From Camelus ferus (taxonomy: Eukaryota), in contig NC_045719.1 of NCBI RefSeq assembly GCF_009834535.1, positions 13,082,001-13,146,000 on the forward strand: 64,000 nt of DNA, in the 5' to 3' direction. The notes beneath the pieces were generated by a model, which searched no databases, was not told the origin of the DNA, and was given only the letters and a program-made list of their open reading frames with translations. A program made the translations under genes and the position numbers. Position 1 is the stretch's first letter; each line of letters starts with the position of its first letter. Positions 7,301 to 55,010 of the stretch are shown here, one piece after another.

Positions 7301-8239
7301 TATTAAATTTTTATAAAATTTTAATAAAATTCCTCAGCATATTAAAAAGGACACCTCAGAAAAGTGAGAAGGAAGTTTTCAGAAGCAGACACCATGACAG
7401 AAAAAGTAACAGCTCCTCAAAAGAAAAAACTAATTAAAAACCAAAAAAAAAAAAAAAAAAAAATGGAAAAGTATTATAAAAAGAAACATAGCAATGTTCA
7501 AAATATGGACAAAGAATCACTAAGAATTTTAAAATTCTATGTAGCATTCTTCTTTTTAAAAAGTTAGAAATGTGTAACCTTATATTTGCTTTAAAAATAA
7601 TTACAATTTTTAAATGACATTTGAGTCTTTGATTAATTTGAGAGGCTCAGGTATGACCTCAATTCCTAACGGTCATAGGATTAATAAAATATCACTGAAT
7701 TGTTAAGTTTTTCAATTATCCAAATAAATTTTCTGCATGTGGATTATCTGTTCTTACTTGTGGATCAGCCTTTATATTAACATCTGAAATTGTTATCATC
7801 ACCTCTTCCTCTTATTCAAATAAAATATGTTCAGGAATGTAAATTTATCTTAATATTAATGAAATAAATACAATTGAAGGAAGTCATCTGCCTATACCAA
7901 TATGTGACTTATTACGCTCTTTAAGTAACTGAAAACTGACTTTACCAATAATGAAACCATCATTCCATATATGTGATGTCCTGATTAGCCTGCAACTGAC
8001 ATTCAAACCATCAGTCTTAAGTCATCCTCATGTTATCAGTCAGTCTTCACCACATGGACTCAGTTACCTCCCAGACTAGTGGTCAAGGCAGGATCCTTCA
8101 GAACCCAGAGATGGTGCGGCTTCTGCATTATCTACCTGAGGAGCTGAACCTTCTCCTCAGTTACTTGTGTCACCAGGAACCATCGTACGCTATGACAGTG
8201 GCCATATTTTAAACCTCATATACCTGTCAATCCAAGCAT

Positions 8240-8310
8240 CACATTAGTTGCCTAAGGTCACAGCTCTAGAAATGATCTACTTTGAGCTGGGTCTGCCAGA
8301 CTCTAAAGGC
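8240..8310 (-). mobile_element. MIR fragment
   Basis: 'ttgcctaaggtcacagctctagaaatg...gagctgggtctgccagactctaaagg' matches the antisense MIR core/5' part. Confidence 0.5.
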
Positions 8311-8787
8311 TGTGATTTTTCTATTTTTCAAATATGGAACATTTTCCTGGTGAGACTGTAGAAAAGTCGGTGTGTTCAGTGCAGGGAAGAGAAGAATCAG
8401 ACCCGACAATACCTTTCTCTATGTGAACATCCTGGGGGGTGAAGGTGGGGTTGGGAAATGTCATTAGGGAAAAAAAAAAGTATATGAGTAGTGATTAATA
8501 TCAAGGTCATAGAAATAAAGAAACATAAAAATGAGAAACCTCATTGTCATCTCTGTTATTTTTCTCGCAGAATGACTGTAAGATAAAATGTGAGTAATCT
8601 TAGACTGTCTCTAGAGAAAAACTGTAATACAAGTACAATTTATGGTGAAATGGACAAAACATAATTTTAAATTTCTCAGAAAAATTATATGAAGTCTAGT
8701 AAAGTTGAAACTGAGTTCTTCTGATAAACTGAATTTAAATTGACTCTAAGTATTTCATATACATATATCTCATAGAGATAGCTTGTG

Positions 8788-8990
8788 TTTAGAGGTACAC
8801 ACTACTATATATAAAATAGATAAGCAACAAGGACCTACTGTACAGCACAGGGAGCTATATTCAATTTCTTGTAATAACATATAATGGAAAAGAATCTGAA
8901 AAAAAAGTATGTATGTGTATGTATAACTGAATCACTTTGCTGTACACATGAAACTAACATTGTAAATCAACTACACTTTAATAAAAAAAA
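8788..8990 (+). mobile_element. L1 3' end (cetartiodactyl-type)
   Basis: 'actactatatataaaatagataagcaacaaggacctactgtacagcacagggagctatattcaat...tgaatcactttgctgtacac...tgtaaatcaactac' followed by an A-rich tail. Confidence 0.85.
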
Positions 8991-9044
8991 TTTTTAGATA
9001 CAATTTAGCAATAATTATCAAAAATCATAAGAAGGATTTACAGA

Positions 9045-9270
9045 ATAGTAATTACATGTTAGACACTGTTTTAAGCACTTTGGATGACTTTTTCATTTAA
9101 TATTCATGATAGTAATATGAAGTAGGAACTTTGATTCTTATCTTTTTCACATGTGATGAAAATCAGGTGTACAAGATATGAACAATTTACCTGGAGTCTC
9201 CACAGATCCTATGGGGCATATCCAGAATCTGAACCCAGGTCTGTCAGATTTCAGAACCTGCACTCTCCCT
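9045..9270 (-). mobile_element. MIR
   Basis: 'agacactgttttaagcacttt...catttaat...gaacccaggtctgtcagatt' follows the antisense MIR consensus. Confidence 0.6.
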
Positions 9271-9362
9271 ATAAATTATTGTTTTGTAAATGTCATTTTC
9301 TATACATGACCAAAGTCTTATTCTATAACATGCAAATACGAGTTAAGAATGTAAAACCAGGA

Positions 9363-9420
9363 GATGGTAGGTACTCAAAAAATAGTTTCTGAATAATTGA
9401 ATAAATGTTTGAATGAATGG
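9363..9420 (+). mobile_element. L2 3' tail
   Basis: 'gtaggtactcaaaaaatag...tgaataaatgtttgaatgaatg' is a typical L2 terminus. Confidence 0.45.
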
Positions 9421-9524
9421 TTGTATTAAACTTTAAAAAACATAAAAACTCGATATAGAGAAATACAGTAACATTTATAGGCATAATAATCAAATGTATA
9501 GATAGATCCTTAACGTTTCCATAC

Positions 9525-9715
9525 TGCTTATCATACATTTAATCTATTTGTTCACAACAACACCCCCGTGAGGGGGCATTGGTGTTCTCATTCCACTTTC
9601 CTGATGAAAAAGCTAAATCTTAATTTTATTACTTTGTCCACGTTGATACAATACTGGGTAGCAGACTCTGAAGTTGAATCAAGGACCTTCGGCTAAACAT
9701 CCAATCCTATTTCAG
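9525..9715 (-). mobile_element. MIR (decayed)
   Basis: 'ttcacaacaacacccccgtgag...ttcctgatgaaaaagct' resembles the antisense MIR core. Confidence 0.45.
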
Positions 9716-10179
9716 CACACACGTTAGTCTTGGAAGTCAATCACACCAAATGTATTACTGTCTTTTTTCCTGATTTCTGATTTGCCCAAAACATATCGAT
9801 TGTAGGAGCAAAACTTCTTTTTACCTCCTGCTAGAATTTTATATGATCACATTTATTTTACAGCCTGAGTCATTATATCATTGCTCTGCAAGTCCTTCTC
9901 CGCTGCTCGGAAGCCCAATGCTGTTCTGGGACTGTGTTCCTGCCCTATATACAAAAGACATTCCTTTGGAAATTAGATGAGTGGTAACCTTATTAATATT
10001 TCATATTCTCAATCCTGCTTGAATTGATGATGCTGCAGTAATTTTTGTGTGAAATAATGTAACATAATGTGCGTAGAGAGTAAGTAGGCCTGTCAGAGAA
10101 TTAATAAAACTTAGTTGTGAGAGGAAAAAAATTCTCACTTTTTTAACCCTAATTCAGGAGGATTTAGCCTTTCTCTCTG

Positions 10180-52024: not shown

Positions 52025-52150
52025 GGACACAGCAACTGAGGATAGGACAAACTCGTCGGAACCAAGATGGTGGAAGATTCGACTTCCCATAGAGCCTCAT
52101 GGCACATCCGCAGGCGCCATGACAGTTCCCATTTAATATGGGCTCTAAAT
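52025..52150 (+). mobile_element. Isolated internal fragment of a MER41-like LTR
   Basis: 52025-52130 aligns to about 53628-53737 ('ggacacagcaactgagga.aggacaaact...aagatgg.ggaagatt.gacttcc...gccatgacagttccc'). No LTR termini. Confidence 0.7.
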
Positions 52151-52555: not shown

Positions 52556-52908
52556 TATTAAAAACCAAAATTCAACCAAGTACAATTTGAAATCTAATTG
52601 GCCTTAGTCATTCATGGATTACAGAGCATCCCATCTAGTAAACAGAAAGGCACTCCCAGAAACTGTACAAAAATGAAGGGCTTTTATAAACATGGCAGGA
52701 CAAGGAGATTATTAACAAAAGGAAAGAAAGAATTGTTTCAAGCAAGGTTACTTCACTAATGCTGACCAGGAAGTTCCAGAAATTCCATTCCTGGGAGAGG
52801 TTGAAATTTCAGTTAAGTCTTGATTTGCTGTCTTGGGGGTGAGTGACTTGACCTTGGGACTGTTGTTTCTTTTTTCTTCTTCTATTTTATATTATTTTTA
52901 TTTTAACA
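52556..52908 (-). mobile_element. 3' LTR of the provirus
   Basis: Homologous to 54587-55010 ('aaaattcaac.aagta', 'agcatccca.ct.gtaaacagaaagg', 'ttccagaaatt.cattcctgggagag'). Minus strand begins TGTTAA. Confidence 0.85.
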
Positions 52909-52920
52909 ATTTCCTCCTTT
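52909..52920 (-). promoter_or_regulatory. Polypurine tract
   Basis: Minus strand reads AAAGGAGGAAAT immediately before the TG of the 3' LTR. Confidence 0.8.
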
Positions 52921-53100
52921 GGACCAAATTCTCAGCCTAACTGAAAGATGTGATCAAAATTAAACACACACCCTCAGCTTCCGCTCTGTGGTTCCTGCAG
53001 CTTTGTTGCTGTTCAGTGTAGTATCCATAGGTCATGATGTTTTTTGCCTATTATACCTGTAACATTCACAGGTAAGAGTTTCAGGTTCATAATCCTTAAA

Positions 53101-54260
53101 TCAGTTATTCTCTTTGAATCTTTTCTGACATTCCAGTCTTAGGGAGGTCATTTTCTTGATGCTTGGTGGCTGTGAACATGCTTTTAAAGCTCTTGAGAAA
53201 ATGTAATGTGCTAGGGGATTATTAGCAAGATAATTCCCAATGTTTGGCATGTATGTTGGAGCCATGATCCTCAAGATGCACCCCAGTTTTAAAAAGACCC
53301 ATTGAAGGAGTAACCCTTTTAAGCCAACTGGCTCTCTCAGTGATCTTACAAAGCTGAGTTTCAGCTTCCTCAGAAATATCAATTTAGGTACAGCATGTGG
53401 CACTGGCCATGGTACAGACACCTCTTTGCTGAGCTAAAAGCTAATCCAGGGCTATACTATTACCCAAGAACAGCCTTGGCCAAAGAGTCTAAGGATCTTT
53501 ATCGGGCAGCTAATATCTTACCAATGGACTCTGCAATGTCTTCAAGAGCTAATGTGAAGTGTCTGATCATATTCTCATTTGTATCTACTCCTGAGACAGG
53601 AGGGAAGGGGGCAGGGCACTGAAGGAAGGACACAGCAACTGAGGACAGGACAAACTGGCTAGAACTAAGATGGCGGAAGATTTGACTTCCGGTAGACCTT
53701 GAGCCTCCTGGCACCCACAGGTGCCATGACAGTTCCCAGACTGACCTTAAAAGGCCAAAAATTGGGCATGAGCCCAATTCCTAGAAATCTATGCCCCTTC
53801 CCCAACATAGTTGGAATGATCCTCCTACTTGTTAGCATTCACAGTTCCTGAGCTCATAAAAACTAACAACCTTGTGCCTCATGGTCACTCTCTCTCTTGC
53901 CTTCTGAGATGGCCTGCACTCTATCTGTGGAGTAGGTATCTACTTTTACTTTAAACTGAACACCCCACACCTCATGGCCTCTCGCCCTCTCACCTTTTGA
54001 AATGGCCTGCATTCTGCCTATGAAATGTGTATTTCCTGTGCCACTCTCCCTTCTGAGTGAGAGAGACCGCACTCTGTCTGTGGAGTGTCTGCCTCCCTGA
54101 GTAAACTTACTTTCACTTGACTGTGCTTTCTGTTGAACTCTTTCCTGCACTAGACAAGAACCTGTTCCCTGGCAACATTCCTAACCAGGGAATGAATTTA
54201 TTCACAGGGATTGCCGTGCTCATGCGTTCAAGCCAGGAGTCAGTCAGACTTTGAACACAC
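53101..54260 (-). pseudogene. Decayed retroviral env TM subunit (stops and frameshifts; interrupted at 53592-54177)
   Basis: Manual translation: ...KFIPWLG|VDTNENMIRHFTLALEDIAESIGKILAAR*RSLDSLAKAVL/GNSIALD*LLAQQRGVCTMASATCCT*IDISEEAETQLCKITERASWLKRVTPSMG..., then QTLGIILLII and IFSRALKACSQP. This gives a fusion-peptide-like segment, heptad repeat, ISD-like segment, CX6CC at 53390-53416, membrane anchor and cytoplasmic tail. Confidence 0.85.
53592..54177 (+). mobile_element. MER41-like ERV1 solo LTR nested in env
   Basis: TG...CA termini (tgagacagg...ctggcaaca), 586 bp, with 4-bp TSD ctcc/ttcc. Removing it restores the env frame (WLG|VDTN). MER41-like 'gccatgacagtt' and 'aagatggcgg', plus three imperfect internal copies of 'ccttctgagatggcctgcactct.tctgtggagt'. 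Confidence 0.8.
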
Positions 54261-54564
54261 GCAGGAAGAGAATTGCCTCGCCTGAAGTAAGGGGCCATCC
54301 TAAGTAGCTTTCAAAGCTGTGTGCTGTTGGCGGGCTCTCTGAGTGAGTGGGGGCAAATTTGATCTAGACAGTTACGGATAGATCAGAATCTTTGATGTTA
54401 AATTCAGAAATCTGAAAGCTTATCCCCCTTAGTAATGGCCCTACAGATACAGATAAGGGCATTATCTTTCCAGGGTAATGAACTTAGACAGAGAACTCGC
54501 TGGGTTCACAGGGTGCTACAGGTGTGTTTCTTGTTGTGCTCAAAGCTGTCAGAAGTCTTCTTTG

Positions 54565-54582
54565 ATCCCACTGCTGCCACCA
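54565..54582 (-). promoter_or_regulatory. Primer-binding site, tRNA-Leu
   Basis: Minus strand TGGTGGCAGCAGTGGGAT, 4 nt after the 5' LTR end. It matches 17 of 18 nt of the complement of the tRNA-Leu(AAG/TAG) 3' end (...ATCCCACCGCTGCCACCA). Confidence 0.85.
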
Positions 54583-54586
54583 AATC

Positions 54587-55010
54587 TGTTAAAAAAACAA
54601 AAAAACCCAAAATTCAACTAAGTAAATTTGAACATCTAATTGATTTTATTCAATGATTCATGAATCAAACAGCATCCCACCTGGTAAACAGAAAGGTACT
54701 CTGAGGAGCTGTAGAAAATTGGAAGCTTTTATAGAAATGAGGCAGGACAGTGAGATGATTAGCAGAAGAGAAGAAAGGGTTGTTTCAGGTAAGGTTGTTT
54801 TAGTCTTACCTCACTAGAGCTGACCCAGAAATTCCAGAAATTTCATTCCTGGGAGAGTTTGAAACCATAATTAAGTCTTGCGATTAATTTGTTGTCCTGG
54901 AGGCAAGTGGTTCTAACTTGGGGCTGTTATTTTTCTTCCCCTTCTCCTCATCCTCCTTCCCTTCCTCCTCCTCCTCCCCTTCCTCCTCTTCCTCTTCCTT
55001 CTTCTAAACA
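54587..55010 (-). mobile_element. 5' LTR of the provirus (contains a CCT/CTT microsatellite expansion)
   Basis: Homologous to 52556-52908. Plus strand starts TGTTAA and ends AACA. Adjacent to the PBS. Confidence 0.85.
54930..55005. repeat. Polypyrimidine (CCT/CTT)n low-complexity tract
   Basis: About 75 nt, almost purely C/T. Confidence 0.9.

What the first reader, a model, noticed from the sequence alone, without database searches (positions are those of the whole stretch)
52556..55010. Compact 'env-only' ERV1 provirus with all cis-elements: possible uncatalogued non-autonomous family
Without the nested LTR, the internal region is only about 1.1 kb. It holds PBS-Leu (17/18), about 300 nt of leader, a gamma-type env TM (fusion-peptide-like FIPWLGV, heptad repeat, ISD-like 'LDSLAKAVL/GNSIALD*LLAQQRGVC', CX6CC, anchor, tail), a 3' UTR and a PPT. 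No gag or pol is recognisable. Keeping PBS, PPT and both LTRs is what a trans-mobilised defective element needs. The LTRs differ by roughly 20-25% by eye, so the insertion is old. Stops and frameshifts make a functional Env here unlikely. The interest lies in the family architecture and whether an intact relative (a syncytin- or HEMO-like co-opted env) exists elsewhere in camelids, where I know of no described captured env.
Basis: partly seen in the sequence, partly recalled or inferred. Interest (0 to 1): 0.7.

Follow-up and report, generated by a model that had tools for sequence, protein, structure and literature searches.

The report
Old broken provirus with private deletion
This is an ordinary, long-dead retroviral insertion whose short 'envelope-only' shape comes from a multi-kilobase deletion seen in no other copy examined, so it is likely a one-off damaged copy rather than a new mobile family or a usable envelope gene.

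Summary
The anatomy is real: a minus-strand class I provirus with two LTRs (19% apart, K2P 0.23), a 17/18 tRNA-Leu PBS, env remnants, a PPT and a nested 586-nt solo LTR of a high-copy family. Without the nested LTR the internal region is about 1.09 kb. The proposed env-only family is not supported. About 40 relatives were fetched; ten with both LTRs well aligned have 3.7-8.1 kb internal regions. The window's junction (54486/54480) occurs in 0 of 30 other env-start places, 0 of 28 other leader places and 0 of the 7 closest LTR relatives. The deletion removes the splice donor, the region that usually holds the packaging signal, gag/pol and the env signal peptide, so not all cis-elements are kept. 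About 300 nt of the supposed leader is env SU. The family's env resembles syncytin-Ten1 and EnvV and lacks much of SU; no intact member was found among scored candidates. It resembles the MER4/HEPSI group (Dfam name untested). One relative looks like an L1-made copy of spliced RNA.

The parts
54587..55010 (-). 5' LTR (TG..CA); outer ~65 nt expanded into a purine-rich microsatellite
54565..54582 (-). Primer binding site, tRNA-Leu (AAG/TAG), 17/18
   Evidence: aragorn finds tRNA-Leu genes at the matching pattern in L148, L153, L160, L162, L163
54486..54564 (-). Truncated leader; stops about 14 nt before the place where relatives carry the splice donor
54480..54486 (-). Private deletion junction (3-7 kb lost relative to relatives), at a CATT present on both sides in many relatives
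   Evidence: bridged in runs X5, X15, X17
54178..54480 (-). env remnant: SU N-terminus (CxxC motif destroyed), SU largely deleted, fusion-peptide-like FIPWLG at 54196-54179
53592..54177 (+). Nested solo LTR of another, high-copy family; 4-bp TSD CTCC/TTCC; interrupts env
   Evidence: 3964 candidates, 40 scored, 78-81% identity
53101..53591 (-). env TM remnant: heptad, ISD-like, CX6CC, anchor, tail; at least 4 stops and 3 frame changes
52921..53100 (-). 3' untranslated region
52910..52920 (-). Polypurine tract
52556..52908 (-). 3' LTR

Best explanation
It is a dead copy of an old, multi-copy class I ERV family with a tRNA-Leu primer site, and a deletion found in no other copy examined joins its leader to the start of env, likely through a short shared sequence at the two ends. 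The parent element integrated tens of millions of years ago (23-52 My by LTR divergence, rate-dependent, inferred) with a 4-8 kb internal region and an env already missing much of SU. A single deletion, either a template switch in the last reverse transcription or a later repair event in the chromosome (not distinguishable here), removed the splice donor, the probable packaging region, gag/pol remnants, the splice acceptor region and the env signal peptide. A younger solo LTR then inserted into env, and neutral decay added stops and frameshifts. It would neither express Env nor be copied again.
For: Leader homology ends at 54486 and env-side homology starts at 54480 in relatives. None of 40 non-self rows (40 of 40 candidates scored) and none of 39 (40 of 261 scored) crosses the junction. 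Of 31 places with the SU-start anchor only the window has leader directly upstream (other 30 score 14-25, null max 24); of 29 leader places only the window and L093 (other junction) have SU within 500 nt. The 7 LTRs most like the window's are 6 solo LTRs and 1 long copy. Ten relatives with well-aligned LTR pairs have 3.7-8.1 kb internal regions (17 tried). 20 of 27 relatives have a donor-like GGTRA in the stretch beyond the break, the window none. Pol remnants in 6 of 22 relatives (one marginal); 7 of 7 controls positive. The window's end branch is 0.2 and its best identity 74%, so it has no close sister.
Against: Genome searches score only top candidates (40 of 83, 40 of 261, 40 of 156), so a diverged compact sister could be missed. 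The env/UTR tree is poorly resolved (1 of 34 inner branches starred). The shorter SU/TM border is shared with 5-6 relatives, and LTR pairs are kept, so some deleted forms of this family did spread. No outer TSD was found. No Dfam/Repbase comparison and no other mammalian genomes were available.
Confidence: 0.86

Rival explanations
1. The compact form is a small non-autonomous sub-family, packaged and copied in trans by a helper ERV, of which the window is the only copy found.
For: Both LTRs, PBS and PPT are kept. The wider family already spread in defective forms: SU shortened in 25 of 25 measurable copies, pol undetectable in 16 of 22. Clusters of short non-coding ERV1 elements are reported in alpaca (PMC8605555 section 14).
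Against: Junction absent from all other places tested. Splice donor and downstream leader, where gammaretroviral packaging signals usually lie (recalled), are deleted.
Confidence: 0.08
2. The element is a reverse-transcribed spliced env RNA (a splice-derived provirus or retrocopy).
For: Leader joined to env is the shape of a spliced env message, and L093 appears to be such a copy.
Against: The window's junction lies about 14 nt upstream of the donor and about 290 nt downstream of the acceptor-like site, at the end of the signal peptide. Both LTRs are complete and there is no poly(A) tail.
Confidence: 0.03
3. The locus, or a relative, is a co-opted env or regulatory element.
For: The env lineage has been captured repeatedly: best named matches are syncytin-Ten1 and EnvV2-like proteins. 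Two RNA runs from one study hold patchy contigs over the element.
Against: At least 4 stops, 3 frame changes, an insertion and no signal peptide here. Longest open frame among 90 TM matches is 285 codons with a stop. No env frame of 200 codons or more in 40 family stretches. RNA contigs are low depth (about 2-5), also lie in the flanks, and cannot show strand or level; 5 partial raw reads in X24.
Confidence: 0.03

Closest known systems
MER4I group / HEPSI supergroup of class I ERVs (MER21, MER31, MER34, MER39, MER65; Vargiu 2016, PMC4724089; Kojima 2018, PMC5753468)
   Same: Highly defective, often no Pol; LTR divergence 13-31% in human HEPSI versus 0.13-0.33 here; PBS-Leu listed for MER21, MER31, MER65, HEPSI3; the ISD text listed for the HEPSI2_a env subgroup resembles that of relative L103 (by eye). 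That the LTR looks MER34/MER39-like is recalled, not tested.
   Different: No consensus comparison was possible, so no family name is assigned; MER34 itself is listed with PBS 'Q?'. This copy's 1.1 kb internal region is a private deletion.
syncytin-Ten1 and EnvV/ARTenvV/CARenvV env lineage
   Same: TM of relative L103 is 43-56% identical to syncytin-Ten1 and EnvV2-like proteins; the window hits P0001 at 42-44% and the SU N-terminus of P0006 weakly (E 0.014).
   Different: Those are intact co-opted genes. Here SU is mostly missing and the frame is broken. ARTenvV is a different single locus (CREM-CCNY), reported lost in Tylopoda.
HEMO (ERVMER34-1)
   Same: A captured env of a MER4-group family (PMC12704712, passages).
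   Different: Reported intact only in simians and some felids; no HEMO-named protein was among the 7 hits; no direct comparison was made.
L1-made processed copies of ERV RNA (HERV-W type; abstract listing PMC5537654)
   Same: Relative L093 has this shape.
   Different: The window's element has two full LTRs and a non-splice junction.

Membership tests
Class I (ERV1) provirus | Paired LTRs with TG..CA ends, PBS and PPT | tested here: met
   the 3' LTR ends TA rather than CA
Class I (ERV1) provirus | Gamma-type TM with ISD and CX6CC | tested here: met
   relative L103 hits Pfam TLV_coat E 1.6e-10; window fragments alone gave no Pfam hit (0 of 6)
Class I (ERV1) provirus | Target-site duplication around the whole element | tested here: inconclusive
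   flanks AGTT and GCAT do not match; 5' end degraded
Non-autonomous env-only family (proposed) | Same internal junction in several independent insertions | tested here: not met
   0 of 30, 0 of 28 and 0 of 7; no crossing rows
Non-autonomous env-only family (proposed) | Cis-elements for packaging and splicing retained | tested here: not met
   donor present in 20 of 27 relatives, absent here; the packaging signal's position is inferred from recalled gammaretroviral layout
MER4I/HEPSI group | LTR and internal sequence match a Dfam/Repbase consensus | not testable with these tools
   no repeat library held
MER4I/HEPSI group | Pol clusters with HEPSI/MER34/MER65 in a tree | not tested
   the window has no pol; remnants in 6 of 22 relatives were not placed
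MER4I/HEPSI group | PBS-Leu, high age, defective internal region | tested here: met
   against the descriptions read; these traits are suggestive, not diagnostic
Captured env (syncytin-like) | Intact env ORF | tested here: not met
Captured env (syncytin-like) | Orthologous conservation, purifying selection, placental expression | not testable with these tools
   no other mammalian genomes; the RNA laid was contigs plus 1% of one raw run

The most novel reading that the evidence does not exclude
The junction marks a rare minimal non-autonomous lineage (LTR, PBS, 80 nt of leader, env stub, PPT, LTR) that was packaged without the usual leader, within an uncatalogued PBS-Leu family whose SU-deleted, syncytin-Ten1/EnvV-like env was spread in trans and also retrocopied from spliced RNA by L1.
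Probability: 0.08. Interest if true: 0.45.

Novelty: new member of a known kind. Interest (0 to 1): 0.15.

Why it matters
Little as it stands: internally deleted old proviruses with nested LTRs are common. The side value is a sketch of a PBS-Leu family (at least about 40 env-bearing copies) whose env lineage was captured in tenrecs, primates, carnivores and other artiodactyls but appears only as broken copies here. If the junction proved to be shared, it would point to an unusually small packageable ERV RNA.

Tried and rejected
Pfam on 6 window fragments: no hit. Pfam on three frames of the long copy L090: no hit; one short piece gave a weak zinc knuckle, E 0.03, below the cut-off. Protein search with the 59-residue window fragment: 1 candidate, no hit. 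PDB search: best was syncytin-2 at E 0.021, weak. TLV_coat search (78 of 384 candidates scored) and syncytin-Ten1 search (85 of 573): the 10 loci fetched for their long or top-scoring frames share no DNA likeness with this element; the longest env-bearing frames are 375 and 386 codons. PBS-pattern loci (30 of 40 matches examined): none was compact. L093-junction search: no second copy among 39 other rows (40 of 50 scored). Splice origin of the window junction was rejected. The automated CATT count (2 of 30) used a misplaced window; the printed rows show 16 of 30. SPRE paper passages were read (PMC8579622) but the motif was not searched. Literature searches listed no paper on this element or on a captured camelid env; the library lacks most subscription journals. 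Earlier-findings look-ups were empty.

Full report
Observation. The element lies on the minus strand. Self-comparison finds the LTR pair at E 1e-50, with p 0.191 and K2P 0.229 over 324 columns. Boundaries read from the sequence are 5' LTR 54587-55010, PBS 54582-54565, PPT 52920-52910 and 3' LTR 52556-52908. A 15-nt pattern for the PBS complement gave 40 matches. Of 30 loci examined, 5 are tRNA-Leu AAG/TAG genes at the match, which carry C where the window has T, so the PBS is 17/18 Leu. A 586-nt LTR on the plus strand (53592-54177; TSD CTCC/TTCC) belongs to a family with 3964 candidates and 78-81% best identity. The internal region is 1,088 nt by subtraction. Contigs from runs X5, X15 and X17 bridge the junction, and 14 runs under two species labels hold 91-94% of the words, so the structure is real.

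Is the compact form a family? The env/3' UTR piece gave 42 rows at 66-81% identity apart from the self match (83 candidates, 40 scored). The piece between the 5' LTR and the nested LTR gave 41 rows (40 of 40 scored). Every non-self row matched either query positions up to 112 or from 118 on, never both. In 40 fetched 10-kb stretches, leader homology repeatedly ends at window 54486 and env-side homology starts at 54480, with 3-7 kb between them where both were found. A search centred on the junction gave 39 non-self rows, none past 54486 (40 of 261 scored). Across the 140 loci then held, 31 distinct places carry the SU-start anchor. Only the window has leader directly upstream (score 230; the other 30 score 14-25; shuffled maximum 24). 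The others carry the env 5' region (29 score 70 or more, one of them a self-match; one scores 40). Of 29 leader places, only the window and L029/L093 have SU within 500 nt. The window's LTR is a short variant; its 7 closest relatives are 6 solo LTRs and the 3' LTR of L063, a long copy. Ten copies with 300 or more aligned LTR columns have internal regions of 3.7-8.1 kb including later insertions (17 tried). K2P over 11 pairs has median 0.24, range 0.13-0.33. These searches score only top candidates, so the counts are lower bounds.

What the deletion removed. The 300 nt after the junction are env, not leader: they begin at the end of the signal peptide and match the SU N-terminus of an EnvV-like protein (E 0.014) and the same place in relatives. 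In 20 of 27 relatives a donor-like GGTRA lies in the stretch beyond the left break, mostly about 14 nt past a CATT; the window lacks it. An acceptor-like pyrimidine tract lies about 290 nt upstream of the SU start in relatives (by eye). The junction is therefore not a splice junction. A CATT sits at the env side in 16 of 30 printed rows, and C(A/G)TT near the leader side in 13 of 27. This suggests microhomology-guided deletion (inference). It cannot separate a template switch before integration from repair afterwards. Losing the donor and downstream leader probably removes the packaging signal (recalled gammaretroviral layout), which argues against further trans-mobilisation.

The parent family. 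The distance from SU start to TM anchor is 299 nt in the window by subtraction. It is 227-445 nt in 23 of 25 measurable relatives and 752 and 894 nt in two, against about 990 nt in intact syncytin-Ten1. One of the two long cases is a repeat insertion and the other may keep more SU. Pol remnants were detected in 6 of 22 relatives, one marginal, with 7 of 7 controls positive. In a tree of 37 env/UTR rows (4 left out for short coverage) the window falls in a weakly supported 14-row branch with the other short-SU copies, end branch 0.2, best identity 74%. So defective forms did spread, but the window's form has no sister. Age by T=K/2r is 52 My at 2.22e-9 (rate from PMC9604959 methods passage) or 23 My at 5e-9 (from PMC8605555 passage); CpG decay and gene conversion blur both.

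Intact relatives. The window's TM fragment read with X at stops gave 90 matches (150 of 214 scored); the longest frames are 285 codons with a stop and 224 without. Searches with Pfam TLV_coat (78 of 384 scored) and syncytin-Ten1 (85 of 573) gave longer frames only in other proviruses. Ten of these were fetched: none shares DNA likeness with this element and none holds a full-length env. None of the 40 family stretches holds an env frame of 200 codons or more. RNA evidence is low-depth unstranded contigs in two runs of one study and 5 partial reads in a raw run, which shows no specific transcript.

Comparison with known systems. A natural 142-residue frame of relative L103 hits TLV_coat (E 1.6e-10) and retrieves syncytin-Ten1 and EnvV2-like proteins (E 4e-18 to 6e-7, 7 hits). 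Vargiu 2016 (passages, a supplement search, and supplement 2 part 5) describes the MER4I/HEPSI elements as old, highly defective and often without Pol, with PBS-Leu in MER21, MER31, MER65 and HEPSI3. Kojima 2018 (passages with Table 4) lists the families. The element works like a member of this group, but membership by consensus match could not be tested. Simpson 2022 (passages) reports ARTenvV lost in Tylopoda; HEMO is intact only in simians and some felids (PMC12704712 passages). Section 14 of PMC8605555 mentions clusters of short non-coding ERV1 elements in alpaca, without tying them to this family. Six searches listed nothing on this element.

Verdict. This is an old defective ERV1 copy with a private deletion and a nested LTR. 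Interest 0.15; chance that the junction marks a real sub-family about 0.08.

Noticed in passing
L093 ~7700-9800 (G000:C25:33053200-33063199): Family member with no 5' LTR, leader joined to the env 5' region within about 10 nt of the donor- and acceptor-like sites, 3' LTR ending in an A/G-rich tail, lying in L1-like sequence (recalled likeness) with an apparent 13-14 bp target duplication: likely an L1-made copy of spliced RNA. No second copy found.
   Followed up: partly
window 52025-52135: Fragment of the same family as the nested LTR (81% over 113 nt), about 420 nt outside the 3' LTR.
   Followed up: no
L061, L063, L068, L069, L079 versus L089, L090, L095, L100: Two internal types appear to share these LTR and env sequences: one with pol remnants, mostly on the window's side of the tree, and one long type with gag-like remnants and no detectable pol.
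   Followed up: partly
L092 7910-8680; L071 7380-8290: L092 may keep more SU than other copies (weak hits to syncytin-Ten1 residues 64-96, E 2e-4); the extra length in L071 is an unrelated repeat.
   Followed up: partly
G000:C17:36277739-36290030 (L113-L115): Three env matches with identical scores, spaced 5,648 nt apart: a tandem ERV array or an assembly duplication.
   Followed up: no
L179, L180: Unrelated proviruses with partial env frames of 375 and 386 codons; no DNA likeness to this element.
   Followed up: partly
L061, L072, L082, L087, L095, L096: The nested LTR family has also inserted into or near several other copies of this family.
   Followed up: no
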